64,000 bases of DNA from Actinomycetota bacterium (GCA_035512775.1 DATKDI010000081.1:7495-71494); one strand, 5' to 3'; shown: positions 5,186-56,194, counted from the stretch's first letter. A program made the numbers and translations. Notes: generated by a model not told the origin, from the letters alone.

Positions 5186-6437
5186 GGAGGGCGACGCCCC
5201 TCGCTCCATCGTCATCGTCGGCGCGAGCCTGGCCGGCGGGACCGCCGCGGGAGTGCTGCGGGATCACGGCTACGAGGGCCGCCTCAGCCTGATCGGCGCG
5301 GAGGAGGAGCCTCCCTACGAGCGTCCTCCGCTCTCCAAGGAGCTCCTGCGCGGAGAGCTCGACTTCGAGGACGCCCTCGTGCGACCCGCCTCCTGGTACG
5401 AGGAGCACGACGTCGACGCTCGCTTCGGCACGATGGCGGTGCAGATCGACGTCCATGCGCGCGAGGTGGTGCTCGCGGGCGGGGAACGACTCCCGTTCGA
5501 TCGACTGCTGGTGAGCACCGGGAGCCGCAACCGGCGGCTGGAGGTGCCGGGAGCCGGTCTGCCGGGCGTGTTCGACCTCCGCTATCACCGCGACGCCGTT
5601 CGGATCCGCGACGCCGCCAAGGAGGGCGCCCGTGTCGTGTGCGTCGGCATGGGATTCATCGGCGCGGAGGTGGCGGCGTCGCTCCGGGCGATCGGGTGCG
5701 ACGTCACGGTCGTCGAGATCTTCGAGACCACCCTGTATCGGATCCTCGGGCCGGAGATCGGCCGCGTGCTCGAAGGGATCCATCGCGATCACGGCGTGAC
5801 GATGCACTTCAGCGACTCGGTGGAACGGTTCGAAGGCGACAGCAGGCTCGAGCGCGTCGTCACCGAGAGCGGCAAGCAGATCGACGCCGACGTCGCGGTG
5901 ATCGGCGTCGGCACCGAGCCGGCCGTGGAGATCATGGCCGGGACAGGCTTGGACCAGGGGGGCGGGATCCGGGTGGGTTCGGGCCTCGAGACGACCGTCC
6001 CGGGCGTCTTCGCCGCCGGCGACGTCGCCCTGCACGACCATCCCGTGTTCGGACCGATCCGTGTCGAGCACTACGACAACGCCGTGAAGATGGGGGAACA
6101 CTCGGCGAACGCGATGCTGGGCTCCGCGAAGGCCTTCGACGACCCGCACTGGTTCTGGTCGGATCAGTACGACTCGAAGATCGAGATGGCCGGGTACGCG
6201 CCGACCTGGGACCGGATGGTGGTCCGGGGATCGCTCGAGGAGCGCTCCTTCTGCGCGTTCCTGTTGGATAGTGGAGGGGTGGTTCGATCGACGGTGTCCC
6301 TTGACTGGAAGCGCGACGTGCGGCGGTCGTTCGGATTGATCAGGTCCCAGGTGGCTCCCGACCCGGAGGCGCTCGTCGACCCGGACGTGGATCTTCGGAA
6401 GCTCGTGCCCCAGCCAGAGAGCGAGAAGGGCGGCTAG
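5178..6437 (+). CDS. FAD/NAD(P)H-dependent ferredoxin reductase
   Basis: GASLAG FAD motif, PYERPPLSK, GMGFIGAEVA NADH motif, FAAGD, FWSDQYD. Overlaps the ferredoxin stop. Confidence 0.93.
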   Translation: MPEEGDAPRSIVIVGASLAGGTAAGVLRDHGYEGRLSLIGAEEEPPYERPPLSKELLRGELDFEDALVRPASWYEEHDVDARFGTMAVQIDVHAREVVLAGGERLPFDRLLVSTGSRNRRLEVPGAGLPGVFDLRYHRDAVRIRDAAKEGARVVCVGMGFIGAEVAASLRAIGCDVTVVEIFETTLYRILGPEIGRVLEGIHRDHGVTMHFSDSVERFEGDSRLERVVTESGKQIDADVAVIGVGTEPAVEIMAGTGLDQGGGIRVGSGLETTVPGVFAAGDVALHDHPVFGPIRVEHYDNAVKMGEHSANAMLGSAKAFDDPHWFWSDQYDSKIEMAGYAPTWDRMVVRGSLEERSFCAFLLDSGGVVRSTVSLDWKRDVRRSFGLIRSQVAPDPEALVDPDVDLRKLVPQPESEKGG

Positions 6438-43382: not shown

Positions 43383-43643
43383 ATGACTGGGGATCCGATG
43401 GACGACGCCTCCGATCGGTTGTTGAAGGTCATCGAGGAGTTCGAGCGTGTTGCCGAGTCGGCGACCCCCGATGAGGCTGCGGCTTCGTTCGACGAGCCCA
43501 CGCTGCAGGTCTTCTGGCAGAGCTGGCCGCACGCGAGCTCCTGGGCGGGCGCCCTCTGGCGTCGTCTCAACGAGAACCTCGCAGACGCCGCGATACCGGA
43601 AGACCGGTCCGATTTCCACGAAGTCGGTGGCGAGGGCGGCTGA
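43383..43643 (+). CDS. Small acidic hypothetical protein
   Basis: Compact ORF with protein-like composition (LQVFWQSWPHASSWAGALW); start uncertain. Confidence 0.6.
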   Translation: MTGDPMDDASDRLLKVIEEFERVAESATPDEAAASFDEPTLQVFWQSWPHASSWAGALWRRLNENLADAAIPEDRSDFHEVGGEGG

Positions 43644-43663
43644 GAGGGGATCGAGGGCTACAC

Positions 43664-44047
43664 ATGGCCATCCTGAAGGAGATCATGACCGGTCAGGTGT
43701 TCACGACCACGAGTGACACCTCGGTCGCAGAGGTGGCCTCCAGCATGCTGAAAGGGCGGTTCGGATCCGCCGTCGTGATGGAGGGTTCGTGGTTGAGCGG
43801 CATCTTCACCGAACGCGACGTGCTCCGCGCGGCGGCGTCGGGATCCGATCTGACCTCCTCGGCCGTCTCGGAATGGATGACCAGCGACCCTGTGACCGCG
43901 GACGCGGACATGGATGCGGACGAAGCCACCGAGGTCATGATGAGCCGTGGCTTCCGGCACCTGCCGGTCGTGGAGGGGAAGACCCTCATCGGGATCGTGA
44001 GCCTTCGCGACATCCTGCGAACGCGGATCCGGCGCCCGCAGCCCTAG
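43664..44047 (+). CDS. Stand-alone tandem CBS domain protein
   Basis: EIMT, GIFTERDVL, EWMT.DP, FRHLPVV, GIVSLRDI. Confidence 0.92.
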   Translation: MAILKEIMTGQVFTTTSDTSVAEVASSMLKGRFGSAVVMEGSWLSGIFTERDVLRAAASGSDLTSSAVSEWMTSDPVTADADMDADEATEVMMSRGFRHLPVVEGKTLIGIVSLRDILRTRIRRPQP

Positions 44048-44084
44048 GACTCGAGAACCCGCACCGACGTTGGGGAACCGCCCG

Positions 44085-44771
44085 CTACTTCCAGGCGTGG
44101 AGGATCAGACGACCTTCCTCGATCAGCTCCGGATGCTTGCGCTCGATCCGCCGGAAGCCGACGTCGCGGAGCATCGCCTCCACGGCCGGGGGGTTCGCCC
44201 CCCACCAGTTCGTCGGGTCATCGTTCAGCTCGGTTCCCGGATAGAAGAGCATGACTGGGTCGGGGTCTTCGACCTTCGCCGTGTGCGAGTCGAAGATCAG
44301 TTGATCGCCCGTCACGCTTGCGACGCGCTCGAGCGCGAGCAGCGGATGTCGGAGGTGGTACAGCACGCCGACGAACAGCACCAGATCGAACGTTCCGACC
44401 TTTTCGGGCGAGAGGTCCATCACGTCGATCTCGAGGTCGTCGGCCCGCGAACCGAGGATCCGGCTCGCCGTGAGGAAGCCCTCCTTCGTTCCCCAGCCCT
44501 CCCCACTCCAGCAATAGGAGTCGGTGGCGAGGACGCGGCTGGCGCCCCGCCTCTCGGCTTCGAACGTGAAGACCCCGTCCCAGGCCCCGATGTCCAGCAC
44601 GCTCTTGCCGGAGAGGTCCGAAGGCAGCTCGAGCGGGGCCATCCGGCTCGGCGTGTCGTCGACGCCGGGCGTGACGATGCCGTCCCCAAGATCGATCCGG
44701 TGGTACCAGTTGACGTCGGCGATCTCCGCCTTGACCTTCTCGATGTCCTGGAAGCCACTACTTCGGTTCAT
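44085..44771 (-). CDS. Class I SAM-dependent methyltransferase (CmoB/DUF1698-like)
   Basis: WYHRIDLGDG..TPG, VLDIGAWDG, FVGVLYHLRHP, NWWG.N. Confidence 0.85.
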   Translation of the reverse strand: MNRSSGFQDIEKVKAEIADVNWYHRIDLGDGIVTPGVDDTPSRMAPLELPSDLSGKSVLDIGAWDGVFTFEAERRGASRVLATDSYCWSGEGWGTKEGFLTASRILGSRADDLEIDVMDLSPEKVGTFDLVLFVGVLYHLRHPLLALERVASVTGDQLIFDSHTAKVEDPDPVMLFYPGTELNDDPTNWWGANPPAVEAMLRDVGFRRIERKHPELIEEGRLILHAWK

Positions 44772-44853
44772 CGCTTCGGCCCTCGTGCGATCCGCATCGA
44801 CTCTCGATCTCCGCTGCATCCTAGCGTTGTGCCGGAGGGCACATCGTCACGCC

Positions 44854-44900
44854 TGGTAGTCCCAACGGGATCTGAACCCATGTCTTCACCTTGAGAGGGT
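44854..44900 (-). repeat. tRNA-Glu 3'-half copy A (att-like), ending in encoded CCA
   Basis: 44857-44900 matches tRNA 54900-54943 with 2 mismatches; TGG at 44854-44856 reads CCA on the minus strand. Confidence 0.95.
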
Positions 44901-45279
44901 TCTCGGGGCCGGTTCCACTACCTGCGACGATGACCGAGCTCGTGCTGCCGACCTGCGGATTCCTTGCTCGATGGTTCCCATCGTTACTTGACGGGTCCCG
45001 GTCGTTCGCGGGACGAATGCGGGACGAATGAGCCGCCCGCCGCGTGTGGGCATCAGGTCGTGAAGCACAGGCGGCCACGAGGAGAGAGCGCGCTCAGGCC
45101 AGCCCCCCAAAGAAGAGTCAATCCGAGAGGTCGAGGCCGATTGGGTCCGGCCAGCGGCATGGCCCGAAGCAGGGCCAGGAGTCTGGTCGCCTCATATGGC
45201 CGCGTGAGCGCTTCTCCTGCACCCATGCAGCGAGCGCGGCACCTCCGAACCGAGCGCACCAGGCTCGGAGGAGGTGAGA

Positions 45280-45578
45280 GTGACCGAACCACCCTGGGGC
45301 TCGTTGCGGCCAGCTGGGGCGTGATCATGGCGTTATCGCCGGTCATGCAGATCCGCTGGATGATGCGCCTCAGATCCTCTCGTGACGTGTCGATCGGCTA
45401 CCTGCTTGTCATCGTCGTGGGGTTCGCGATCTGGATCGCCTACGGGATCGTGATCCGCGATCCCGCGGTCGTTGGCCCCTACACCGTCGCGTTCATCGTG
45501 GGGCTGGGGACGATCGCGGTCGCCGTCCACTTGCGGAAGCTGCAGGAGCGCCGAGCCACGCACGCCAAGGTTCCATGA
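45280..45578 (+). pseudogene. SemiSWEET/PQ-loop family small transporter, apparent 1-nt frameshift just after the start
   Basis: SPVMQI...SSRDVS...GF.IW..YG...D..V...N-like pattern in the reading frame from ~45282. SD GGAGG and GTG (45280) are out of frame with it. Confidence 0.65.
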
Positions 45579-46187
45579 CCGATCGGGTTGCCGCCGGAGT
45601 TGGTTGCGATGACGGCCACGCAGGGAGAGGACGGCCGTGGTCCAAAGGTTTGCCGTTCTGCTGGCCTGCTGGATGGGCGAGCGAACCTCGGTCACGAGAT
45701 GACGGTGGAACCGCGCCGGGCGGACCCGGCCGAGGCAAGGCGTGACCCCGGAGGCTAAGTGGGTGCGTTGTGTTGAGGGCGAGAGGAGAGACTGGGGAAC
45801 CCTCGGGTGAGCAGCGCAGGAAGAGGCGGCCTTGGCGACGATCGCCCGAGACGCCATGGATAACGTGCCGCACGCTCGGGGTCGGAGCCCCATTCCATCC
45901 GAACGGTCTCAACAACCGACCGGGCTTCGGTCTGTGTTCAACTACGAATGATGATGCGAGTCCGGCGACACAGCGCCTGCATGATCGGTATGGCGATCGC
46001 GGTCCCCGGCGGGACGGCGCAGGCACCCACGGCTGGCCGGGCCTTCATCGCCAGCGTGGCTCCCTTTCGACGCCTCGTCTCCATGGTCGGGCTGTTCGTC
46101 GACCCCGCTAGGCCTCAACGGCGGCACCCTGTTCTGTTCCCCGTCCCGGTGGTCGCTTCCCGTTGGTCACATCGGCGGGCGGGTTAG

Positions 46188-47420
46188 ATGTCGGGTCCTC
46201 CCGATGACGACAAGGCTGTCCGATCCGTTCGTCAGCGGATGGCCATCCCGGTGGCCGAGTTCCTTCGCACTGAAGCTGCCGGCGGGGTGCTGTTGGTCCT
46301 GGCGACATTGGGCGCGCTCGTGTGGGCGAACAGCCCGTGGGATGAGTCCTACCGGGACCTCTGGCACCATGAGCTGAGCATTGGAGTCGGCCGGTTTGCC
46401 ATAAGCGAAGACCTCGGCCACTGGATCAACGACGGACTGATGGCTGTGTTCTTCTTCGTCGTCGGTTTGGAGATCAAGCGCGAACTCGTGGTGGGCGAGT
46501 TGAGCGACCCGCGGGCGGCAAGCCTTCCGGTCCTGGCCGCGCTCGGCGGGATGGTCGTGCCGGCGGTGTTGTTCATCGCCATAGCAGGAGGCGGCGAGGC
46601 AGGACGGGGCTGGGGCATCCCGATGGCGACCGACATCGCATTCGTCGTCGGGGTGCTGGCGCTGCTCGGCTCCCGCGTCCCTTCGGGTCTCAAGCTGTTC
46701 CTGCTGACCTTGGCGATCGTCGATGACCTCGGCGCGATCGCCGTGATTGCCGTCTTCTACTCCGAAGGTATCGACGCCGCCTGGCTGGCCGGGGCAGGCG
46801 CGTCCCTCCTGCTCGTCGTCGTCGCCCGCCGGCTCGGGCTGCGCTCGCCGCTGGCGTACGTGCCGCTCGCCCTGGCGGCATGGGTGTGTACCCTCGAGTC
46901 CGGGGTCCACGCCACCGTGGCCGGGGTCGGGCTCGGCCTGCTGACGCCGGCACGTCCATTTCGAGGTCAGCCGGTGCTCGAGAATCTCGAGCACCGGCTC
47001 CATCCATGGAGCAGCTTCTTGATCGTGCCGGTGTTCGCGCTGGCCAACGCCGGTGTGGATCTTGGATCGGGCGCGGTCGGATCCGCGCTCGGCGGTCGAA
47101 TCGCGTGGGCGGTGATCGTCGGGTTGCTGGTTGGAAAGACGTTCGGTATCGCCGCGTTCGCCGCGCTCGGTCTGCGGCTCCGGGCCGGCACGCTCCCCGC
47201 CGACGTACGGCTCGGCCACACCGTGGGAGCCGGTGCCCTAGCCGGCATCGGCTTCACCGTGTCGCTGTTCGTCACAGGCCTTGCGTTCGACACGCCAGAC
47301 CTGATCGCAGACGCGAAGATCGGCATCCTCGCCGCTTCGATCCTGGCCGGCACGTTGGGCACCACCGTGCTCCTCACGCTGCGCCGCCACCCGGCAACGT
47401 CCTCGGGCTCCGGTCGATGA
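46188..47420 (+). CDS. nhaA: Na+/H+ antiporter NhaA
   Basis: WINDGLMAVFF, EIKREL, GWGIPMATDIAF, LAIVDDLGA, GIGFTVSLF. Confidence 0.96.
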   Translation: MSGPPDDDKAVRSVRQRMAIPVAEFLRTEAAGGVLLVLATLGALVWANSPWDESYRDLWHHELSIGVGRFAISEDLGHWINDGLMAVFFFVVGLEIKRELVVGELSDPRAASLPVLAALGGMVVPAVLFIAIAGGGEAGRGWGIPMATDIAFVVGVLALLGSRVPSGLKLFLLTLAIVDDLGAIAVIAVFYSEGIDAAWLAGAGASLLLVVVARRLGLRSPLAYVPLALAAWVCTLESGVHATVAGVGLGLLTPARPFRGQPVLENLEHRLHPWSSFLIVPVFALANAGVDLGSGAVGSALGGRIAWAVIVGLLVGKTFGIAAFAALGLRLRAGTLPADVRLGHTVGAGALAGIGFTVSLFVTGLAFDTPDLIADAKIGILAASILAGTLGTTVLLTLRRHPATSSGSGR

Positions 47421-47451
47421 CCGGGCATTCCGACCTGTCCGCTCGAGCGCC

Positions 47452-49293
47452 ATGAGCGGCGCCGAGCGGGGCTACGCCGCGCCGCCGTTCGCTCCGCTGG
47501 AGCACGCCGATGGGTACCTGCCGCTGGAGGATCACGGACTGATCGGTGACGGCGCCACCGCCGCACTCGTCGGCCGTGACGGAGCGATCTCCTGGCTGTG
47601 CCTGCCGCGGTTCGACTCCCCGCCTGTGTTCTGCTCGATCCTTGACCACCGACGGGGCGGGAGGTTCCTCGTCGCACCCGAAAGCCCTTCCGAGACCCGG
47701 CAGCGCTACGAACCTGACAGCGGCGTCCTGACCACCGAGATGCGCTCGCCGACCGGCCTGGTACGCGTGACCGACGCGTTGACGCTGCGCCGTGGGGTCG
47801 ACATCACCGAGGACGTGACCGCCGCCCGCGGCGAGCTCCTCCGCTCGGTGGTCGTCCTCGACGGCGAGGCCCGGATCAGGGTCAGCGTCGAGCCACGCGG
47901 CGGCGCATCGGCGTCGCGGCGCGGCGACGGCTTCCACGTCCGCTGTCACGACCATCCCGACCTCGACCTGCAGTTGTCGGCCACCGGCCAGCTCGAAGGG
48001 CTCGACACCATCCTGGCGTTGCGCGCCGGTGAGCAGATCCACGTCGGGCTGCGCTGGGGGCGGGGCCCTCATCGCGGCTACGATTGGCGGCCCGCTGAGG
48101 ATCTGCAGGGAACGCTCGACGTGTGGCGGGCGTGGATACACCACTTCAACTACGTCGGGCCGAACGGACCACTGGTGCGTCGGTCGGCCATAACCCTCAA
48201 GCTCCTCGATCACTTTGCCAGCGGCGCCATCGTCGCCGCGCCCACTTCGTCGCTGCCCGAAGCCCTCGGCGGGCTGCGCAACTGGGACTACCGCTATACC
48301 TGGGTCCGCGACGCCGCCTTCTCGGTCTACGCCCTGCGCCGCATCGGGCTCGATCGCGAGGCGTGGAGGTTCCTCAGCTGGGTCCTCGACGCCATCGAGG
48401 GAGAAGGTGAGCCCCGTGTGATGTACGATCTCGACGGGAACCAGCCCCCTGCCGAACGCGAGGACGCCGAGCTGGAGGGCTACCGCAGGTCGCAGCCGGT
48501 TCGCTGGGGGAATGCCGCCGCCTCGCAGCGCCAGAACGACGTCTTCGGTGAGATCCTCGACTGCGCCTACCTATGGGTCCGCGGTGGTGGCACGATCGAT
48601 CCGCGGTTGTGGGAGCGGCTGCGATCGCTGGCCGAGAGTGCCGCCGACTCGTGGCGGACTCCGGACCACGGCATCTGGGAGGTCCGCGCGATGGGGCGGG
48701 TCTTCACCTACTCCGCCGCCCTGTGCCAGGTCGCCCTCGACCGGGCCGCGAAGCTGGCCGGCCAGCTCGGATCCGTCGGCGATGCCAACCGCTGGGCGGC
48801 AGAGGCGGCGCGGATCCGCGACGCGATCCTGACCGACGCCTGGGATCCCGAGCGGACGTCGCTGACCGAGCACCTCGGAGGCGGCGGGCTCGACGCCAGC
48901 CTGCTCGCCCTCCCACTCCGGCGCGTTGTCACGACCCAGCATCCCAAGATGGTCGCGACGGTCGACGCGGTGATGCGGCGTCTCGGCGCCGGCGACGGTC
49001 TTCTCTACCGCTACCTTCCCCATGAGTCCCCCGACGGGATCGCCGGTCAGGAAGGAGCCTTCCTGCTGTGCAGCTTCTGGCTCGTCGACAACCTCGCCGG
49101 CCAGGGCCGCCTCGACGAGGCCCACGCACTGTTCGAGTCCCTCTGTTCGCGCGCGGGCCCGCTCGGGCTCCTACCCGAGCAGATCGACCCGACCACCGGC
49201 GCATTCCTGGGCAACTACCCACAGGCGTTCAGCCACGTCGGGCTCATCTCCAGCGGCATCAACCTCGGTCGCCGGGCCGAGGAGCGATCATGA
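47452..49293 (+). CDS. Glycoside hydrolase family 15 (trehalase/glucoamylase-like)
   Basis: DHGLIGD, RNWDYRYTWVRD, PDHGIWEVR, EGAFLLCSFW, GNYPQAFSH. Confidence 0.93.
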   Translation: MSGAERGYAAPPFAPLEHADGYLPLEDHGLIGDGATAALVGRDGAISWLCLPRFDSPPVFCSILDHRRGGRFLVAPESPSETRQRYEPDSGVLTTEMRSPTGLVRVTDALTLRRGVDITEDVTAARGELLRSVVVLDGEARIRVSVEPRGGASASRRGDGFHVRCHDHPDLDLQLSATGQLEGLDTILALRAGEQIHVGLRWGRGPHRGYDWRPAEDLQGTLDVWRAWIHHFNYVGPNGPLVRRSAITLKLLDHFASGAIVAAPTSSLPEALGGLRNWDYRYTWVRDAAFSVYALRRIGLDREAWRFLSWVLDAIEGEGEPRVMYDLDGNQPPAEREDAELEGYRRSQPVRWGNAAASQRQNDVFGEILDCAYLWVRGGGTIDPRLWERLRSLAESAADSWRTPDHGIWEVRAMGRVFTYSAALCQVALDRAAKLAGQLGSVGDANRWAAEAARIRDAILTDAWDPERTSLTEHLGGGGLDASLLALPLRRVVTTQHPKMVATVDAVMRRLGAGDGLLYRYLPHESPDGIAGQEGAFLLCSFWLVDNLAGQGRLDEAHALFESLCSRAGPLGLLPEQIDPTTGAFLGNYPQAFSHVGLISSGINLGRRAEERS

Positions 49294-50645
49294 CCCAGCT
49301 CGTCATCCTCGGCGCCGCCGGCGATCTCACCTCCCGCTACCTCATCCCCGCGCTCGGCGAGCTCGGCGGCGCAGGTGCCCTGCCCCCGGAGCTCACCATC
49401 ATCGGCGTCGACCGGCAACCGTGGGACTACGATGAGTTCCGGCTTCACCTCGCCCAACGGCTCGATAGCCAGGCTGCGACGTTCCTCTCGGGCCTTCGCT
49501 ATCACCGCGGCGATGTGACCGACGCCGAGACGCTCCGCGCCGCGTTCGACCCACCCGACGCGCCCGCCGTGGTCTACCTCGCGCTGCCCCCACACGTCGT
49601 CCCCGGAGCCGTGCAGGCGCTCGGCGCGCTGCCGCTCGCTCGGCGCAGCCGGATCGTGGCCGAGAAGCCCTTCGGCGACGATCTGCACTCGGCCCGCTGG
49701 CTCAACACGCTCTTGCACGAAGTGGCGCCCGAGGAACAGGTGTTCCGAATCGACCACTTCCTCGGCAAGCAGACCGTGCAGAACGTCCTGGGCTTGCGCT
49801 TCGCCAACCGGATCTTCGAGGCCGTCTGGAACGCCCAACACGTCGAAGCTGTCGACATCGTCTGGGACGAGACCCTCGCCCTCGAGGGGAGGGCCGGCTA
49901 CTACGACACTGTAGGGGCGCTGCGCGACATGGTGCAGAACCACCTCATCCAGTTGCTGTGCCTGCTCGCCATGGAGCCGCCCGTCACGCTCGACGAGCGC
50001 TCCCTTCGCGACCGCAAGGTCGACGTGCTGCGTGCCGTCCGTCGACCCACCCTCGACGACGTACGTCGCCACACCCTTCGGGCTCGCTACCGGGCCGGTA
50101 CGGCCGGCGGAATCACCGTCCCGGGCTACGTTGACGAACCCGGTGTCGACCCTGAACGCCGAACCGAGACCTTTGCCGCCGTCACGTTGTTCGTAGACAA
50201 CTGGCGCTGGGCGGGCGTACCGTTCACGCTGCGCAGTGGCAAGGCGCTCGGCGCCGACCGCCACGAGGTCCGCGTCCGCTTCCGCCCCGTCCCTCACCTC
50301 GCCTTCGACCAAAACCAAGACCAGGACCCACAGCCCAACGTCCTACGCCTGCACGTCGATCCAGACCGGGTCACCCTCGAAGTCAACCTCAACGGTACCG
50401 GCGATCCGTTCCGACTCGAACGGGCCGGCATGGCCGTGGTCCTGGCCCCCCAGGAGCTGTCCGCCTACGCTAGGCTGCTCCTCGACATCTTCGCCGGCGA
50501 TCCGGTCCTGAGCATCCGGGCCGATGAGGCGGAAGAAGCATGGCGGTTCATCGAGCCGATCGTCGACGGATGGCGCAACGAAGCAACACCTCTGCTCGAA
50601 TACCCCGCCGGCTCGTCAGGACCCCACGAACGCGACCGCACATGA
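49290..50645 (+). CDS. zwf: Glucose-6-phosphate 1-dehydrogenase
   Basis: GAAGDLT, EKPFG.D, RIDHFLGK, RDMVQNH, RWAGVPF.LR.GK; ATG overlaps the GH15 stop. Confidence 0.93.
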   Translation: MTQLVILGAAGDLTSRYLIPALGELGGAGALPPELTIIGVDRQPWDYDEFRLHLAQRLDSQAATFLSGLRYHRGDVTDAETLRAAFDPPDAPAVVYLALPPHVVPGAVQALGALPLARRSRIVAEKPFGDDLHSARWLNTLLHEVAPEEQVFRIDHFLGKQTVQNVLGLRFANRIFEAVWNAQHVEAVDIVWDETLALEGRAGYYDTVGALRDMVQNHLIQLLCLLAMEPPVTLDERSLRDRKVDVLRAVRRPTLDDVRRHTLRARYRAGTAGGITVPGYVDEPGVDPERRTETFAAVTLFVDNWRWAGVPFTLRSGKALGADRHEVRVRFRPVPHLAFDQNQDQDPQPNVLRLHVDPDRVTLEVNLNGTGDPFRLERAGMAVVLAPQELSAYARLLLDIFAGDPVLSIRADEAEEAWRFIEPIVDGWRNEATPLLEYPAGSSGPHERDRT

Positions 50646-50862
50646 GTATCTCACCACCGTCTGAACCGCCCTGGGTTTCATGGGACCTGATGCACCCCAA
50701 GTCGCGGAGCCAGAGACGGTCATCGTGCGTGACGGCCCCGCCGAAGCGCCGCGCATCTTCGTATCCTAAGTAGGAGGCGCCGAACCTCGCGCGCATCGAC
50801 CACTGGGTGCTTCATCCGCGATGAACACCCAGGATCTAAGCCCTGACAAGGGCGGGGGCACC

Positions 50863-52008
50863 ATGAACTCACTTGTTGACGATTATCCGGCCGACCTCCT
50901 CCTGGCTCATGAGCCGCCCTGCATCTCGCTCTACCAGCCGACCCATCGGAGTCATCCGGAGAACAAGCAGGACCCGACCCGAGTCCGCAACCTCGTCAAG
51001 GCGGTGGAGGAGTCGCTGCGGCAGAAGTACCCGACGCGTGAGGTCCAACCGCTCCTCGAACCGTTCGAGGCCCTCGCGATCGATCGCGGCTTCTGGAACC
51101 ACACCCTTGACGGATTGGCGGTGCTCGGGGCGTCGGGCACGTTCCTCGTCTACCGGCTCCAGCGGCCGGTTGTCGAGTTGGCTGTCGTGGCCGATAGCTT
51201 CCACACGAAGCCGCTGATGCGCATCCGCCAGTCGGCCGACCGATACCAAGTCCTCGGTCTTACGCTCACCGAGATCAAGTTGTTCGAGGGCAACCGCGAT
51301 GCACTCGACGAGGTCGAGCTGGCCGAAGGGGTTCCGCGAACCATCGTTGAAGCTCTGGGCGAGGAGTTGACGGATCCGCATCAAACCGTCGCTTCCTACG
51401 CAGGCGTCAGAGGGCCGGCTATGAAGCATGGTCACGGTGCCAGGAGCGATGAGACGGACATCGACGCTGAGAGATTCTTCCGCGCGGTCAGCCGTGCGGT
51501 CCTCGAACACCACTCAAGGACGTCGGAGCTTCCGCTGTTGTTGGCGGCCCTGCCTCAGCACCACCACCTCTTCCGCAAGGTCAGCGACAACCCGTTCTTG
51601 ATGGCGGAAGGGATCGATGCCCATCCGGATTCCCTTCCGATCGACGAACTCCGCGACCGCGCCTGGGGCGTCGTCGAGCCTTACTATCGTGCGCGGTTGG
51701 CCCAACTGGTCGAAGCGTTCGGCGCAGCGAGGTCGGAAGGGCTCGGCGCGGACGATCCGGCGCAGGTCGCCGAGGCGGCCGCGGCCGGGCGGGTTGCGAC
51801 GTTGCTCATCGAGGTCGACCGTCAGATCCCCGGTCGGATCGACGCCGCGACTGGCGGGCTCGATTTCGGTGAACTGACTCATCCGGAGGTGGACGACATC
51901 CTCGACGACCTTGGTGCGTTGGTCATGGGCGCGGGTGGTGGGGTGGTGGTCGTCCCGGCCGAGCAGATGCCGACACCCACGGGGGTAGCTGCGATCTACC
52001 GGTACTGA
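50863..52008 (+). CDS. Bacterial aeRF1/pelota-fold protein (baeRF3-like), no GGQ
   Basis: CISLYQPTHR, FW....GLAV, DSFH.KPL, HGHG loop, A..GRV.TL, C-terminal GVAAIYRY typical of the aeRF1 L7Ae-like domain. Alternative start at 50821. Confidence 0.8.
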   Translation: MNSLVDDYPADLLLAHEPPCISLYQPTHRSHPENKQDPTRVRNLVKAVEESLRQKYPTREVQPLLEPFEALAIDRGFWNHTLDGLAVLGASGTFLVYRLQRPVVELAVVADSFHTKPLMRIRQSADRYQVLGLTLTEIKLFEGNRDALDEVELAEGVPRTIVEALGEELTDPHQTVASYAGVRGPAMKHGHGARSDETDIDAERFFRAVSRAVLEHHSRTSELPLLLAALPQHHHLFRKVSDNPFLMAEGIDAHPDSLPIDELRDRAWGVVEPYYRARLAQLVEAFGAARSEGLGADDPAQVAEAAAAGRVATLLIEVDRQIPGRIDAATGGLDFGELTHPEVDDILDDLGALVMGAGGGVVVVPAEQMPTPTGVAAIYRY

Positions 52009-52037
52009 GTCGGAGTCAACAACGGAGAGGATGTTTC

Positions 52038-52352
52038 GTGAAGGTTCAGATCAACACCGATAGCAACATCGAGGGTCACGAAGAGATGACCCAGCAGGTC
52101 GAGGCCGCGCTGGGAGCCGCCGTGGGCCGGTTCATCGATCAGATCACCCGGGTGGAGGTCCACCTCAGCGACCTCAACAGCCACAAGTTCGGCGCCGACG
52201 ACAAGCGCTGCTTGCTCGAAGCCCGCCTTGCAGGCCGCCGGCCGACAGCGGTGAGCCATCAGGCGGCGACCGTCCAGGAGGCGATCGAAGGCGCCGCCGA
52301 CAAGCTGAAGAACAACCTCGAGAGCACCCTCGGGCGGCTTGGCAGAGGATAG
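52038..52352 (+). CDS. Short HPF/RaiA family ribosome-associated protein
   Basis: MKVQIN.D..IEG, ITRVEVHLSD, DKRC.LEARL.G..P.AV; SD GGAGAGGA. Confidence 0.85.
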   Translation: MKVQINTDSNIEGHEEMTQQVEAALGAAVGRFIDQITRVEVHLSDLNSHKFGADDKRCLLEARLAGRRPTAVSHQAATVQEAIEGAADKLKNNLESTLGRLGRG

Positions 52353-52450
52353 CTGCCCCCGAAGCGGGAGGACGGGCTCGTCGGAGTTCCTTCGAGCGTT
52401 CACTCGAGCGTTCCTTGCGAGAGGTCGGCGCAGGTCAGCGGTCTATTGAG

Positions 52451-52496
52451 TAGTCCCAACGGGATTTCAACCCGTGTCTTCACCTTGAGAGGGTGA
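52451..52496 (-). repeat. tRNA-Glu 3'-half copy B (att-like)
   Basis: 46 bp identical to 54900-54945 except one substitution in the T-loop. Confidence 0.95.
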
Positions 52497-52723
52497 CCGG
52501 GGGTCTGTGACCTGCAACCCTTGCCGCAAGCAGGCCCTGACCTGCTGTTTCGGCTTCTGTTTACGCTGGGTCGCTACCCGTCGTTCTTCGACATCGTGCG
52601 GGATCTGTGCGGGATCGTCGTCTCTCCCCGCGCCTCTCCGGGCGACCCAACGAGGGCCCACAGGACCATTGTCGACGTCGGTTGCCGGTAGGGGCAGAGG
52701 CCATATGCTGGGAGAATCGAGGG

Positions 52724-53026
52724 ATGCCACTTCCCGAGATCGCCTGCCCCTCGTGCGGCGAGAGCGAGCGTTTACGCGGCCGACGTGAGACGAAGGGACT
52801 GGTCATCACCTGCGAAGCGTGCGGGGGCAGTTGGGAGCGCGACGTACGGCGTCGGTGCCGGTTGTGCGGCTCGGAGGACCTCCGCTACACGCCGCGGCCG
52901 TTGTGGGAGCGGGGTCGCGGTAACCAGCGCACTCCGGCCGGTCGCGTGGACGCGTGGGCGTGCAACTCGTGTGGCGGCCGCAACGTGACGTCGGCCGAGC
53001 CGGGGGTCGCTTCTGCCCACGGCTGA
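52724..53026 (+). CDS. Small double zinc-ribbon protein
   Basis: Four CxxC pairs: CPSC, CEAC, CRLC, CNSC in 100 aa. Confidence 0.7.
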   Translation: MPLPEIACPSCGESERLRGRRETKGLVITCEACGGSWERDVRRRCRLCGSEDLRYTPRPLWERGRGNQRTPAGRVDAWACNSCGGRNVTSAEPGVASAHG

Positions 53027-53232
53027 CGCCGGTCCTCGAGCTGGTGAGCGAGTACTACATGACCACCCGGTCGGCGGTTCCTGCGTTTCACCGAGTCAAG
53101 GCATCGCGCAAGCGTAGCGCGAAGGCCGGCCGCTCGGTATCCGCGACCGCGCTGATCGGTTACGCGCAACTCCCGGTCGTCGGCGCGGCGATCAGAGGCA
53201 GTAGCTCTCACAGTCTCGATTCGTCATCGATC

Positions 53233-53448
53233 TCACCCGGCCGACGCGAGGGATACCAGCATGGCCTCCGGCCGCTGTTTCCGCGCCTGCTCGAGCCAGA
53301 AAGCGTTCGGGAACAGGGCGAGCAGCGTTCCGTCGGTCCGCGAGAGCACCTCGACCCCCCGGATGTCCCGAAGGGCTGCGGCGCCGTCGGCGTCGGTGAG
53401 CCGTGCCACGGTGTAGGGGAGTGTGGACAGCTCAACAGGAGCGCCGTC
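53233..53448 (-). pseudogene. prfC: C-terminal remnant of peptide chain release factor 3
   Basis: GAPVELSTLPYTVARLTD...RGVEVLSRTDGTLLALFPNAFWL resembles the actinobacterial RF3 C-terminus; no GTPase domain upstream. Confidence 0.6.
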
Positions 53449-53540
53449 TTGGGTGCGGTTGCCGACGACTTGGTCTTCCTCATGCGCGACGTCGACGATC
53501 CCCTCCGCGGGTGTCAACGAATGGGTGGGACACACCTGGA

Positions 53541-54260
53541 TCACCCGTGACCCACCGTGGCGACATACACGGTGCTTGCAGCCTCGCCCCCGGTAAGTGG
53601 GTTCGGAAAGGTGATGACGTGCGCCTCGCATGACGCGAACACTTGCTCGAGGACGGAGATGTAGCCCTCGTCCGGGGAGGCGTCGGACCACAGGCCGTAG
53701 ACGCCTCCCGGGTTGAGACGATCGGCGAGTCGCCGCTGCCCCTCTGGATGGTAGAAGGGGGCGTGGCTGGGATGCAGGAGGTGCTGAGGCGTGTGGTCGA
53801 CGTCCACGAGGACGGCGTCATGGCGGTCCGGGGTGTCGGGCCCGAAGCTCGAGCCGGTGGCGACCATAGCGAAGAAATCGCCGTTGACGAGGTTGCATCG
53901 CCGATCCGAAGTCAATCCGTGGCTCAGCGGAAGCAGTCCACGTTGATGCCATTCGATGACCTCGCCCAGGACTTCGATGACCTGCAGGGAGCGCACCCGG
54001 GGGTCTCTCAGGACGGCTTGTGCGGTGTAGCCGAGGCCGAGCCCTCCGACCACGACGTCGAGATCTGCACCAGGGATGCTGGCGAGCGAGATATCGGCGA
54101 GTGCGATCTCAGCGGCAGTGAAGAGGCTCGACATGAGGAACTCATCGCCGAGCTTCACCTCGTAGACGTCGACCTGCAGGGTTGGTTCGAGTCGACGTCG
54201 CAGGCTGATCTCGCCGAGTGGTGTCGGGCGCCAGTCGAGCTCCTCGAAACTTGCACTCAC
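53541..54260 (-). CDS. Spermidine synthase-like SAM-binding protein
   Basis: DEFLMSSLFT.AE.ALA, VVGGLGLGYTA, GDFF, LVDVDHTP. Confidence 0.85.
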   Translation of the reverse strand: MSASFEELDWRPTPLGEISLRRRLEPTLQVDVYEVKLGDEFLMSSLFTAAEIALADISLASIPGADLDVVVGGLGLGYTAQAVLRDPRVRSLQVIEVLGEVIEWHQRGLLPLSHGLTSDRRCNLVNGDFFAMVATGSSFGPDTPDRHDAVLVDVDHTPQHLLHPSHAPFYHPEGQRRLADRLNPGGVYGLWSDASPDEGYISVLEQVFASCEAHVITFPNPLTGGEAASTVYVATVGHG

Positions 54261-54899
54261 CGTGTCATCCCGCCCGTGTGCACGTCGCTACGGTCCGGGG
54301 GCGTCGACGCGTCCATCGCCCTGACGTAGCCAGCATCCGCACCGCTGCGCAGGTCCACGCGATAGACCCCGGCTTGGGGAGCCTCTGTATCGGAGGCCGG
54401 TCGCCGAGCAGCGAGGGCCCGTTGAGCACGTCCGGTTCCATTAGCGCAGTGTCACGTTCAGGCATCGGCCGGCTTCCCGTCAAACCACCGAGCCCCTCGC
54501 GCAAGATGTCAGGGTCAATCCGCCCAACCGGCGCGAGGAGCGGCTTGCCCATGAAGAATGCCAGCGTGCTGTCTCGGCGCCGGAACACCTCCGCCCAGAG
54601 TGAGCTTCGGAGCGCCGTTGCTCCCGATCCCGACGTCCCTGAGATGGACCGCCGATCGAAGGAGCTCTCGTAGAGAGGGTTCAGGAAGGATTCCACACTT
54701 CTCCCCGTGCCCCCGGCGCTCGCCGCGAGATTGGTGCAGCCAGCTCCGTCGTCCGGATGGTTTCTCGCGAGCAGGGTCAACCACCGCAGAGGGTGGTTGC
54801 AACTCGCATGCGGGATCTGGCGGGATCTGGGCCTGCCAGTCCCACTCTCACAGGCCTGCCCGAGGCATGATTCGGCCCGTGACCTGCGGCTTTACCTCG

Positions 54900-54972
54900 T
54901 AGTCCCAACGGGATTTGAACCCGTGTCTTCACCTTGAGAGGGTGATGTCCTAGGCCTCTAGACGATGGGACC
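54900..54972 (-). tRNA. tRNA-Glu(CTC)
   Basis: GGTCCCATCGTCTAGAGGCCTAGGACATCACCCTCTCAAGGTGAAGACACGGGTTCAAATCCCGTTGGGACTA; complete cloverleaf, CCA not encoded. Confidence 0.97.
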
Positions 54973-55022
54973 GTGGGCCCTGATGGGTCCGGGGAGCGAG
55001 GATAGCACCGGCCTCCGGCGGC

Positions 55023-55883
55023 TCAGCCCTTCCCGATGATCCGCGAAAGGACCGTCGAGTAGTCCTGGTCGCCGAGGCCGGCTTCCTCGGCCTCGGCGAA
55101 CCACTCCGCGGCCGCCGCGAGTAAGCGAGCGTCCACGCCGGCGGCCGCCGCGGTCTCCAGGATCAGCTCGGCGTCCTTCCGAGCGAGGGCGAGCCGGAAT
55201 CGAAGGGGGAATTCGCCTGTCTCGAGCTGATCGCGACGCCGCTTCGCTGCGAGTGAGAGCGGCGTCGAGGCCAGGATGTCCATCGTGAGCTCGCGGCCGA
55301 GCCCCATGCGGTCCGCGAGCGCGATCGTCTCTCCGAGGAGCGTGAGGGAGCCGACGAGGGTCGCGTTCGCCACCAGCTTCGCCGCCGCTCCGGAACCGAG
55401 GGGCCCTGCGACGAGAACGGATCCCAGATCGGCGAGCAGCGGGATCCATCGTTTGACGAGTCGGTGCGGGCCGCCGGCGAAGACCAAGAGCGTTCCGGAC
55501 TCCGCCTCCGACAAGCTCCCCAGAACCGGGGCATCGAGCAGCCCGGTCTCGGGCGGCAGCGCCGAGGCGAGCCATCGGATGGCGAGGGGCCCGACCGTGG
55601 ACATCTCGACCACCGTGGTCGAGGCGTCGGCGCCCGAGGCGATCCCATCTGGCCCCTCGGTCACGTCACGGAGCGCCGTGGGATCCGACACGACCGTGAC
55701 GAGCACCTCCGCCCGGCGGGCGGCGTCGCCCGGGCTCTTCGCCGGCACCGCTCCCCGCCCCACGAGCTCGGCCGCCTTCTCGGGTGTGCGGTTCCACACG
55801 ATCACCTCATGCCCGGCATCGAGGAACCGACGCGCGAATCGCCCGCCCATCGCCCCCAACCCGACCACCGCCACCTGGGTCAT
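55023..55883 (-). CDS. NAD(P)-dependent beta-hydroxyacid dehydrogenase (3-hydroxyisobutyrate DH family)
   Basis: GLGAMG, WNRT, EMSTVGP, LDAPVLGS, GSGAAAKLVAN. Confidence 0.92.
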   Translation of the reverse strand: MTQVAVVGLGAMGGRFARRFLDAGHEVIVWNRTPEKAAELVGRGAVPAKSPGDAARRAEVLVTVVSDPTALRDVTEGPDGIASGADASTTVVEMSTVGPLAIRWLASALPPETGLLDAPVLGSLSEAESGTLLVFAGGPHRLVKRWIPLLADLGSVLVAGPLGSGAAAKLVANATLVGSLTLLGETIALADRMGLGRELTMDILASTPLSLAAKRRRDQLETGEFPLRFRLALARKDAELILETAAAAGVDARLLAAAAEWFAEAEEAGLGDQDYSTVLSRIIGKG

Positions 55884-56023
55884 GCCGACCATGATGGCGT
55901 GGGACGTGACGTGCGACACGTCGGTGACGTGTCCAAGATCACGGGGCGTCCGTGCCCACGGGCACCGCCCGAGATCGCCCGTGCGCGTACCGTCAGACCC
56001 GTTACCGACGAAGGGGGCGGAAG

Positions 56024-56194
56024 ATGATCACCGGAGACATGGCGAGGGAGCAGATCCGCGATCGCGTGCGCGAGGCCGATGCTTTCCGTCGGTCCCGGGC
56101 CACCCGGACGGCCCAGCGCCACGACCGCCGTGCGGTCGCTCGCAAGGCCTACAGTGGCTTCGTCGCCATCCTGGCGACACCGTTCCGCCACTGA
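56024..56194 (+). CDS. Small Arg-rich hypothetical protein
   Basis: 56 aa, SD-like AAGGGGG, followed by a strong hairpin. Confidence 0.55.
   Translation: MITGDMAREQIRDRVREADAFRRSRATRTAQRHDRRAVARKAYSGFVAILATPFRH

What the first reader, a model, noticed from the sequence alone, without database searches (positions are those of the whole stretch)
44854..54972. Two tandem integrase-less islands stacked at tRNA-Glu(CTC); the displaced 3' end still encodes CCA
Seen: the tRNA 3' half through the anticodon loop is repeated at 44857 (44 bp, 2 mismatches) and 52451 (46 bp, 1 mismatch). The distal copy ends ...GGGACTACCA while the intact gene ends ...GGGACTACGA. Copy A changes keep the T-arm foldable (G-U pair); copy B breaks the TTC loop. 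No tyrosine or serine recombinase ORF was recognised in either island. Established: repeats extending to the anticodon loop typify tyrosine-integrase tRNA sites. Inference: two successive integrations, with the original chromosomal 3' end pushed to 44854; the islands either lost their integrases or are satellites mobilised in trans.
Basis: partly seen in the sequence, partly recalled or inferred. Interest (0 to 1): 0.7.

Follow-up and report, generated by a model that had tools for sequence, protein, structure and literature searches.

The report
Two integrase-less islands stacked at tRNA-Glu
Two pieces of foreign DNA (7.5 kb and 2.4 kb) were inserted one behind the other into a glutamate tRNA gene of an uncultured soil actinobacterium; both keep their docking sequences but have no integrase gene, which is a clear but ordinary example of how genomic islands pile up and become stranded at tRNA genes.

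Summary
The 3' 45-47 nt of tRNA-Glu(CTC) (54899-54972, minus strand) recur in direct orientation at 52450 (1 mismatch) and 44856 (2 mismatches); none is expected by chance. The distal copy ends in CCA and the live gene in CGA.

A congener (G015) has the clean empty site. The window's two flanks, joined, align to it in one 2,456-nt stretch at 89.6% identity, and its tRNA encodes CCA.

Both islands carry the arm architecture of an integrase-bearing element that sits at the same tRNA in relative G036: tandem GCGGGAY repeats about 105 nt from the core plus ACCTGC boxes. Neither island shows any integrase trace by Pfam, tblastn or six-frame phmmer. The 93.5%-complete MAG has only two Xer-like tyrosine recombinases.

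In this family the site is a hot spot, with arrays of up to four islands. Of 29 islands tallied, 4 have an intact integrase, 5 a broken or truncated one, and 20 none.

Best reading: successive integrations followed by integrase loss, that is, CIME-like remnants. Mobilisation in trans is not excluded. This is a new member of a known kind, of moderate-to-low interest. Island A carries a horizontally acquired Balon-like/HPF ribosome-hibernation pair.

The parts
54899..54972 (-). Live tRNA-Glu(CTC). Its 3' 47 nt (54899-54945) are the proximal att core (attL of island B). The 3' tail reads A73-C74-G-A, so CCA is not encoded.
   Evidence: ARAGORN; sequence and fold; 100% identical to the tRNA of more than 20 congeners.
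52497..54898 (.). Island B, 2.4 kb, with no recombinase.
   Evidence: Bounded by core copies. Absent from all congeners examined. No integrase by Pfam, tblastn or phmmer.
54810..54829 (+). P-arm arm-type repeats of island B: GCGGGATCTG twice, 70-89 nt from the tRNA 3' end.
   Evidence: Pattern GCGGGA-N4-5-GCGGGA occurs 5 times in the window against 0.2 expected, and 3 of the 5 are at island ends. Colinear with the three GCGGGATC repeats at the 3' end of the G036 integrase gene.
54879..54889 (+). GTGACCTGCGG box next to the core on the attL side of island B.
   Evidence: Same box at the same distance in G036 attL. The heptamer alone is common in the window (32 matches against 14.7 expected), so only its position is informative.
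53541..54260 (-). Island B cargo: spermidine-synthase-like class I methyltransferase (239 aa).
   Evidence: Weak PF01564 and NF002010 hits. More than 7,900 homologues in Actinomycetota metagenomes, best 92%. 94% nt identical to a copy in an unrelated context (L284), and 91% identical to a copy beside a similar P' arm and core (L286).
52607..53026 (+). Island B cargo: small zinc-ribbon protein (conserved part about 52715-53002).
   Evidence: PF13453 E 2e-5. 75% aa homologue in G056, others in G038 and G135.
52598..52617 (+). P'-arm arm-type repeats of island B: GCGGGATCTGTGCGGGATCG, about 105 nt from copy B. ACCTGC boxes lie at 52509-52515 and 52539-52545.
   Evidence: 93% identical to the equivalent 29 nt of the G036 attR.
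52450..52496 (+). Core copy B: attR of island B and attL of island A. 47 nt with 1 mismatch (TTC to TTG in the T-loop).
44901..52449 (.). Island A, 7.5 kb, with no recombinase. Its tRNA-proximal (attL) arm is only 97 nt long and degenerate: one GCGGGA at 52364-52369, TCGAGCGTTC twice at 52392-52413, and an inverted ACCTGC box at 52430-52436.
   Evidence: A 95.5% identical copy of 44928-51026 is on soil metagenome contig Ga0302046_10016917 (L195).
52038..52352 (+). Island A cargo: short HPF/RaiA-type ribosome hibernation factor.
   Evidence: PF02482 E 1.7e-9. Sits next to the Balon-like gene in dozens of phylogenetically scattered genomes.
50821..52008 (+). Island A cargo: Balon-like ribosome hibernation factor with the aeRF1 fold (baeRF family 3).
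   Evidence: PF18845 E 2e-50. NF052287 'AOC03_06830 family ribosome hibernation factor' E 2.8e-53, 181.7 bits, below its 330-bit cut-off. Nearest relatives are 65-75% identical and scattered over many phyla, against 30-38% within its own order.
49068..50645 (+). Island A cargo: glucose-6-phosphate dehydrogenase. The true start is probably near 49300.
   Evidence: PF02781 and PF00479. The genome's other copy, on C24, is only 39% aa identical.
47452..49293 (+). Island A cargo: GH15 glucoamylase/trehalase-like hydrolase.
   Evidence: PF00723 and PF19291. Paralogue on C59 at 35% aa.
46188..47420 (+). Island A cargo: NhaA Na+/H+ antiporter.
   Evidence: PF06965 E 7.5e-145. Paralogue on C61 at 46% aa.
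45291..45578 (+). Island A cargo: SemiSWEET-like small transporter, inside ORF 44964-45578.
   Evidence: PF03083 E 4.5e-8 and NF037968 E 5.4e-8.
45008..45029 (+). P'-arm arm-type repeats of island A: GCGGGACGAAT twice, about 108 nt from copy A. ACCTGC boxes lie at about 44921 and 44950-44956.
   Evidence: The 126-nt arm is 78-92% identical to attR arms in G102, G197, G208, G251 and more than 30 soil metagenome contigs whose cargo differs.
44856..44900 (+). Core copy A: the displaced original tRNA 3' half, 45 nt with 2 mismatches, followed on the tRNA strand by CCA.
   Evidence: Its left flank is homologous to the sequence just downstream of the tRNA in G015.
44085..44819 (-). Chromosomal left flank: class I SAM methyltransferase gene.
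   Evidence: Pfam. A 90% aa homologue abuts tRNA-Glu in G015.

Best explanation
Two genomic islands were inserted, one after the other, into the anticodon-loop att site of tRNA-Glu(CTC) by lambda-type tyrosine integrases of the family still present at this tRNA in relatives.

Each incoming element carried a copy of the tRNA's 3' half, so the gene was rebuilt each time, now without encoded CCA. The previous 3' half was pushed outward. The original, CCA-ending half is now at 44856.

Both elements then lost their integrase gene by deletion and are stranded. Island B keeps complete P and P' arms. Island A keeps only its P' arm. They are therefore CIME-like remnants. They could move again only if a cognate integrase were supplied in trans, for example by a related element landing at the same tRNA.

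Shown here: the three core copies, the empty site, the shared arm architecture with an integrase-bearing relative, and the absence of any recombinase.

Inferred: the order of the two events, that an integrase was once present in each island, and their present immobility.
For: - **Repeats:** three direct core copies against 0 expected.
- **Empty site:** the joined flanks give one 2,456-nt HSP at 89.6% identity in G015, whose tRNA ends in CCA. Twelve congeners lack both islands at this site, and island B DNA has no hit in any congener.
- **Integrases at the same site:** tyrosine integrases end 20-120 nt from this tRNA's 3' end in G007, G029, G036 and G043.
- **Shared arms:** the attL and attR of island B, and the attR of island A, align colinearly with the attL and attR of the G036 element. 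The ACCTGC boxes and the tandem GCGGGAY repeats keep the same spacing.
- **Core position:** the block of identity starts at the anticodon stem, as in Islander's 'anticodon-centred' class (PMC4383910).
- **No recombinase:**. The whole MAG has only two PF00589 genes, each matching a gene that occurs once per relative and scores like Xer.
- **Decay series at the same position in relatives:** full integrase (G036, G043); frameshifted (G218); C-terminal 166 aa (G148), 120 aa (G197), 55 aa (G081) and about 30 aa (G004); none in 20 of 29 islands.
- **Foreign cargo:** NhaA, GH15 and G6PD are only 35-46% identical to the genome's own copies. The Balon-like gene's nearest relatives lie in other phyla.
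- **Matches the published model:** this is the three-step model of integration, decay to a CIME, then accretion (PMC5704250).
Against: - No remnant of an integrase is detectable in either island, so 'once had one' rests on analogy with relatives.
- In island B the arm repeats are intact on both sides, and the DNA where the integrase should be (54261-54800) is orphan sequence rather than a recognisable pseudogene. A never-autonomous element would look the same.
- Three complete metagenomic islands with island-A-type arms on both ends (L182, L235, L185) also lack any recombinase. I found no integrase-bearing member with exactly that arm motif.
- The MAG is 93.5% complete, and mobile elements are often lost in binning, so a helper integrase could exist unseen.
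Confidence: 0.78

Rival explanations
1. The islands are non-autonomous 'satellite' cargo islands that never carried an integrase. They consist of conserved P and P' arm modules around arbitrary cargo. They are inserted, stacked and exchanged at tRNA-Glu(CTC) by integrases supplied in trans by rare autonomous relatives.
For: - 20 of 29 islands at this tRNA in 19 genomes have no integrase.
- The 126-nt P' arm of island A is 78-92% conserved across genera and on more than 30 of 80 fetched soil contigs, and similarity stops where the cargo begins.
- Its 21-nt arm motif occurs on at least 120 metagenome contigs.
- Complete islands L182, L235 and L185 lack recombinases. L182 and L235 have this arm on both ends; L185 has it on the distal end.
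- Island B keeps perfect arm repeats on both ends.
- A 6-kb integrase-less island is shared at 82% identity by two genera, G061 and G197.
Against: - No cognate integrase is present in this MAG.
- C-terminal integrase remnants at the expected position in G148, G197, G081 and G004 show that loss by deletion does occur in this family.
- Island A's tRNA-proximal arm is degenerate.
- In the G061/G197 pair the tRNA-proximal ends differ (2.1 kb against 1.0 kb), as expected from independent deletions.
- The genomes were chosen for having extra tRNA fragments, so the 20 of 29 figure is biased.
Confidence: 0.18
2. A and B did not arrive separately. A tandem A+B composite formed in a donor and was acquired in one integration event that used the outer att sites.
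For: - G208, from another genus, has the same order of arm subtypes: a GCGGGAT-type island of 1.4 kb next to the tRNA, then a GCGGGAC-type island of 9.6 kb distal to it.
- Transfer of such composites is documented for CIME-ICE tandems (PMC5704250).
Against: - The G208 islands share no cargo with A or B.
- Metagenome contig L195 carries island A at 95.5% identity and L286 carries an island-B-like end, but neither shows the two linked.
- Copy A (2 mismatches) and copy B (1 mismatch) give no resolution on timing.
Confidence: 0.12
3. The repeats are not att sites. They would arise from local duplication of the tRNA 3' half, or from mis-assembly or chimerism of the MAG contig.
For: The source is a MAG and read support could not be checked.
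Against: - A clean empty site exists in G015.
- The same arm-core architecture occurs in many independent genomes and metagenomes.
- Island A was assembled independently at 95.5% identity.
- The repeats are only 45-47 nt, shorter than typical assembly k-mers.
Confidence: 0.02

Closest known systems
CIMEs (cis-mobilisable elements) and site-specific accretion, the ICESt1/ICESt3 paradigm of Streptococcus thermophilus (Pavlovic 2004 and Bellanger 2011, as reviewed in PMC5704250)
   Same: The islands are flanked by attL and attR and have no integration or transfer genes. They are stacked in tandem at the 3' end of a tRNA gene. The published three-step model (integration, decay, integration of a second element into the regenerated site) fits the anatomy.
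   Different: The host is an uncultured soil actinobacterium. The parent elements seen in relatives show no conjugation module in what I examined: G007 has an integrase plus an AAA_25 protein, and G043 has an integrase plus type I R-M and an IS256-type (Mutator-family) transposase gene. Cis-mobilisation has not been shown. Island A's attL arm is degenerate.
Tandem genomic islands in tRNA and tmRNA genes as catalogued by Islander/TIGER (PMC4383910, PMC12424338)
   Same: A tRNA gene plus displaced 3' fragments in direct orientation, an anticodon-centred att site, and restoration of the tRNA by element-borne sequence.
   Different: Islander keeps a candidate, or a member of a tandem array, only if it has its own integrase gene (PMC4383910). 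Arrays like this one are filtered out and therefore under-recorded.
Accretion and cis-mobilisation of Streptomyces pathogenicity islands (Zhang and Loria 2017, cited in PMC5704250; not read here)
   Same: An actinobacterial precedent for att-flanked modules that stack and move together using a single integrase.
   Different: In those islands an integrase is present in one module and mobilisation was shown experimentally. Here there is no integrase and there are no experiments.
Lambda-type attP organisation (core plus arm-type integrase sites on the P and P' arms)
   Same: Tandem 10-11-nt direct repeats 70-140 nt from the core on both sides. The motifs are element-specific (GCGGGAT, GCGGGAC, GGGGTTCCAC, TGTCACC) and co-vary with the integrase present.
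   Different: Binding of these repeats by the integrase N-terminal domain is inferred and was not tested. The ACCTGC boxes have no assigned protein.
Integron cassette arrays and CALINs
   Same: Recombinase-less cargo units separated by a recurring recombination site, in a variable order.
   Different: There are no attC hairpins and no IntI. The junctions are tRNA-derived cores with linear arms, and the units are multi-gene.

Membership tests
Tyrosine-integrase genomic island in a tRNA gene (Islander definition) | Intact tRNA gene plus a displaced 3' fragment, on the same strand and on the 3' side | tested here: met
   copies at 52450 and 44856 are direct repeats on the 3' side of the tRNA.
Tyrosine-integrase genomic island in a tRNA gene (Islander definition) | Precise absence (an empty site) in related genomes | tested here: met
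   In G015, one 2,456-nt HSP runs across the joined flanks. Twelve congeners lack the islands.
Tyrosine-integrase genomic island in a tRNA gene (Islander definition) | An integrase gene inside the island | tested here: not met
   None found by Pfam, NCBIfam, PHROGs, tblastn or phmmer.
CIME (cis-mobilisable element) | attL and attR are retained | tested here: met
   Island B has cores plus arm repeats and boxes on both sides. Island A has both cores and a complete P' arm, but its P arm is degenerate.
CIME (cis-mobilisable element) | No integration or transfer genes | tested here: met
   The cargo consists only of transport, metabolic and hibernation genes, a methyltransferase and a zinc-ribbon protein.
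CIME (cis-mobilisable element) | Derived by decay from an autonomous integrative element | tested here: inconclusive
   Arm homology to the integrase-bearing G036 element and a series of integrase remnants in relatives support this. No remnant is present in this window.
CIME (cis-mobilisable element) | Can be excised or transferred when a related element supplies the integrase (accretion-mobilisation) | not testable with these tools
No cognate integrase is present in the MAG.
Prophage or phage satellite | Phage structural, packaging or replication genes, or similarity to viral contigs | tested here: not met
   PHROGs gave nothing meaningful. The arm motifs and the core have 0 hits in IMG/VR.
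Integron / CALIN | attC-type imperfect palindromes between cassettes, with or without IntI | tested here: not met
   The junctions are tRNA 3' halves with linear arms. No IntI-like gene is present.

The most novel reading that the evidence does not exclude
Islands A and B would belong to an abundant, uncatalogued family of recombinase-less cargo islands of soil Actinomycetota. In this reading each unit is arbitrary cargo framed by a conserved P arm of about 165 nt and a P' arm of about 130 nt around a tRNA-Glu(CTC) core. The units are inserted, stacked (up to four deep) and exchanged at that tRNA by integrases supplied in trans by rare autonomous relatives. In effect this would be a tRNA-anchored, multi-gene cassette system that island finders discard because they require an integrase.
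Probability: 0.2. Interest if true: 0.62.

Novelty: new member of a known kind. Interest (0 to 1): 0.36.

Why it matters
For this genome, the result explains a strain-specific 10-kb block. It shows that a Balon-like/HPF ribosome-hibernation pair, a second G6PD, a GH15 hydrolase and a second NhaA arrived by site-specific integration and are now fixed in place.

More generally, it documents that tRNA-Glu(CTC) is a heavily used landing site across a whole family of uncultured soil actinobacteria. Most islands there no longer carry, or never carried, an integrase while keeping recognisable arms.

Standard island finders require an integrase, so this kind of accessory DNA is systematically under-counted in MAG-based surveys.

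The conserved arm modules give a concrete set of sequences with which trans-mobilisation could be tested.

Tried and rejected
- **Integrase remnants.** Searched by tblastn with three site-specific integrases, by phmmer --max on all six-frame fragments, and by Pfam, NCBIfam and PHROGs on all ORFs. Nothing was found. The ORF pair 53643-54329(+) and 54218-54673(+), which sits where an integrase would be, has no hits. The real gene there is the minus-strand methyltransferase.
- **A helper integrase elsewhere in the genome.** Only two Xer-like genes, on C18 and C71.
- **Exact-protein look-ups** for flank and island proteins, to find alternative strain contexts. There was nothing useful: one 2-kb contig for the right-flank gene and none for the others.
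- **Extra GCGGGA tandem at 5236-5263.** This is a coding coincidence in the GxGxxG motif of a reductase, not an att arm.
- **L166 and L223 as possible attP of an island-A-type element.** These contigs have integrase, then core, then an island-A-type P' arm. I rejected the attP reading because the arm motif on the integrase side (ACCAT-type) differs, so they are more likely tandem junctions.
- **Phage origin.** No hits in viral contigs.
- **Orphan ORFs 54265-54780(-) and 52954-53550(+).** They have essentially no homologues among 5.8 billion proteins.
- **Encoded CCA as functionally important.** Rejected, because about 80% of this genome's tRNA genes lack it.

Full report
**Observation**

ARAGORN places tRNA-Glu(CTC) at 54899-54972 on the minus strand. 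A 45-nt probe running from the tRNA's 3' end through the anticodon loop matches three times in the window, all in the same orientation: at 54899 (0 mismatches), 52450 (1) and 44856 (2). No match occurs in 100 shuffles, and the assembly holds no further copy.

On the tRNA strand, copy B is identical from the first base of the anticodon stem to C74 (47 nt), apart from TTC to TTG in the T-loop. Copy A is identical over 45 nt, apart from a T-stem C-to-T change (a G-U pair) and a T-loop A-to-G change. The live gene continues ...ACT-A-CGA and copy A continues ...ACT-A-CCA.

**Empty site**

The window lies in a 2.56-Mb, 83-contig MAG that is 68% G+C and 93.5% complete. Earlier notes of this scan call it an uncultured soil actinobacterium (I did not check this).

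The tRNA is 100% identical in more than 20 congeners. In congener G015 the homologue of the methyltransferase gene 44085-44819 (90% aa) ends 35 nt from the tRNA, and the tRNA is followed by CCA. The window's two flanks, joined in a script (43601-44855 plus 54899-56100), align to G015 as a single 2,456-nt HSP at 89.6% identity.

None of the 12 congeners examined carries either island at this site, and island B DNA has no hit in any congener. So about 10 kb is an insertion and copy A is the original chromosomal 3' half.

**What made the insertions**

In G007, G029, G036 and G043 a tyrosine integrase (PF00589, with SAM-like and central domains in G036) ends 20-120 nt from this tRNA's 3' end, on the opposite strand.

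The G036 element shows the att anatomy. On the tRNA side there are three GCGGGATC repeats inside the 3' end of the integrase gene and a CTGACCTGCGG box 20 nt from the core. On the far side there are two ACCTGC boxes and then GTGCGGGATATGTGCGGGATCG about 105 nt from the displaced core.

Island B has the same parts in the same places:
- GCGGGATCTG twice at 54810-54829;
- GTGACCTGCGG at 54879-54889;
- boxes at 52509 and 52539;
- GCGGGATCTGTGCGGGATCG at 52598-52617.

Island A's distal end has them too, with a variant repeat: GCGGGACGAAT twice at 45008-45029.

The tandem motif occurs 5 times in the window against 0.2 expected. Three of the five are at island ends, and the other two are a coding coincidence.

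Other integrases at this site go with other repeats: GGGGTTCCAC in G029 and TGTCACC in G007. This is what arm-type sites would do. That they bind the integrase is inference.

**No recombinase**

- Pfam, NCBIfam and PHROGs scans of every sizeable ORF give cargo only.
- tblastn with the three local integrases finds nothing in the islands (best E 0.5, elsewhere). In the whole MAG it finds only the two Xer-like genes that PF00589 also finds.
- phmmer --max against all 252 six-frame fragments gives a best E of 0.9. The same search picks up a roughly 30-aa integrase tail in the 1.4-kb island of G004.
- The stretch where the integrase should be (54261-54800) is orphan DNA.

**Cargo**

Island A carries:
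- a SemiSWEET-like transporter;
- NhaA;
- a GH15 hydrolase;
- G6PD;
- a Balon-like aeRF1-fold hibernation factor (PF18845; NF052287, below its cut-off);
- a short HPF.

NhaA, GH15 and G6PD are 35-46% identical to the genome's own copies. The Balon-like protein is 30-38% identical to homologues within its order but 65-75% identical to proteins scattered over many phyla, usually with the HPF beside it. The cargo is therefore foreign.

Island B carries a spermidine-synthase-like methyltransferase and a zinc-ribbon protein.

A soil contig (L195) holds island A at 95.5% identity over 6.1 kb. Another (L286) holds the island B methyltransferase gene at 91% next to a similar P' arm and core. A third (L284) holds that gene at 94% in an unrelated context.

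**Family context**

The site is a hot spot. Roughly a quarter of 185 family genomes have extra tRNA-Glu matches; this is a rough upper bound from match counts.

Arrays of two islands occur in G043, G102, G197, G208, G234 and G251, and an array of four occurs in G148.

Of 29 islands in 19 genomes:
- 4 have an intact integrase;
- 1 has a frameshifted integrase;
- 4 have only a C-terminal piece (166, 120, 55 and about 30 aa) at the expected position;
- 20 have none.

The sample was chosen for having extra fragments, so it is biased.

The P' arm of about 126 nt is 76-92% conserved across genera and on more than 30 soil contigs, and similarity stops where the cargo starts. Its 21-nt motif is on at least 120 metagenome contigs and on no viral contig.

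Three complete metagenomic islands of this arm type also lack recombinases. Their cargo includes a copper ATPase with ABC and TetR genes, MarR and pirin with an oxidoreductase, and an ECF sigma with a kinase.

G061 and G197, from different genera, share 6 kb of an integrase-less island at 82% identity, but their tRNA-proximal ends differ.

**Reading**

The anatomy matches the published three-step model of integration, decay to a CIME, and integration of a second element into the regenerated site (PMC5704250).

The graded integrase remnants in relatives argue that loss by deletion is the usual route. I put about 0.78 on 'two successive integrations, integrases lost, now stranded unless helped'.

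The abundance of recombinase-less units with well-kept arms, and the failure to find an integrase-bearing member with the GCGGGACGAAT arm, keep a trans-mobilised satellite family alive at about 0.2. A single acquisition of an A+B composite is possible; G208 shows the same order of arm subtypes.

Island B should be excisable by a G036-type integrase. Island A, with a degenerate proximal arm, probably is not, except together with B.

The CCA difference is a good marker of which end is original but is not functionally important. Only about 10 of 50 tRNA genes here encode CCA.

**Limits**

- The source is a MAG, and a helper element could have been lost in binning.
- Islander-type pipelines reject integrase-less candidates (PMC4383910), so comparison with catalogues is limited.
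- Earlier notes of this scan report similar integrase-less stacks at other tRNAs in other genomes. I treat these as leads only.

Noticed in passing
window 50821-52352: The Balon-like (baeRF family 3) gene and the short HPF gene form a two-gene module. It recurs with 51-77% aa identity in Syntrophobacteraceae, a Methylocaldum plasmid, Gemmatimonadota, Planctomycetota, Verrucomicrobiota, cyanobacteria, Dyadobacter and others. Homologues within the host's own order are only 30-38% identical. This is a strongly horizontally spread ribosome-hibernation cassette.
   Followed up: partly
G000 C74:19365-19449 and C1:5733-5817 (outside the window): In the window's own genome ARAGORN calls an 85-nt tRNA with a four-base anticodon (cgtt) and a second, 85-nt 'tRNA-Glu(ctc)' that is unrelated in sequence to the one studied. 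These could be false positives, or an unusual or frameshift-suppressor-like tRNA.
   Followed up: no
L182:11490-11820, L229:650-980, L235:12755-13085 (metagenome contigs): The tRNA-proximal arm of the GCGGGACGAAT-type islands contains a degenerate copy of the anticodon-arm part of the core only (CCCGTGTCTGCACCTTGACCAGGGTGGA). It lies 33-60 nt from the tRNA 3' end, after the arm repeats (at -139) and a GTGACCTGC box. It may be a second core-type site.
   Followed up: no
L168, L178, L213 (metagenome contigs): The same P' arm follows a truncated core (only GTGTCTCCACCTTGAGAG) about 185 nt downstream of a tRNA-Met(CAT) gene. This may be a secondary integration site or a rearranged junction.
   Followed up: no
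G148:C2:20959-39928; G061:C1 and G197:C1: G148 has four islands stacked at this tRNA, with only a 166-aa integrase remnant. G061 and G197, from different genera, share a 6-kb integrase-less island at 82% nt identity, while the short flanks available gave no comparable hit.
   Followed up: partly
window 53541-54260 vs L284: The spermidine-synthase-like gene of island B is 94% nt identical to a gene on a soil contig whose neighbours are quite different (MerB, an adenylate-cyclase/LuxR-type regulator, an ECF sigma). That contig has no tRNA or arm within its 6.7 kb. The gene itself seems to move between contexts.
   Followed up: partly
window 49068-49293: The longest G6PD ORF overlaps the end of the GH15 gene by 226 nt, but the Pfam NAD-binding domain starts at residue 79. 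The real start is probably near 49300.
   Followed up: no
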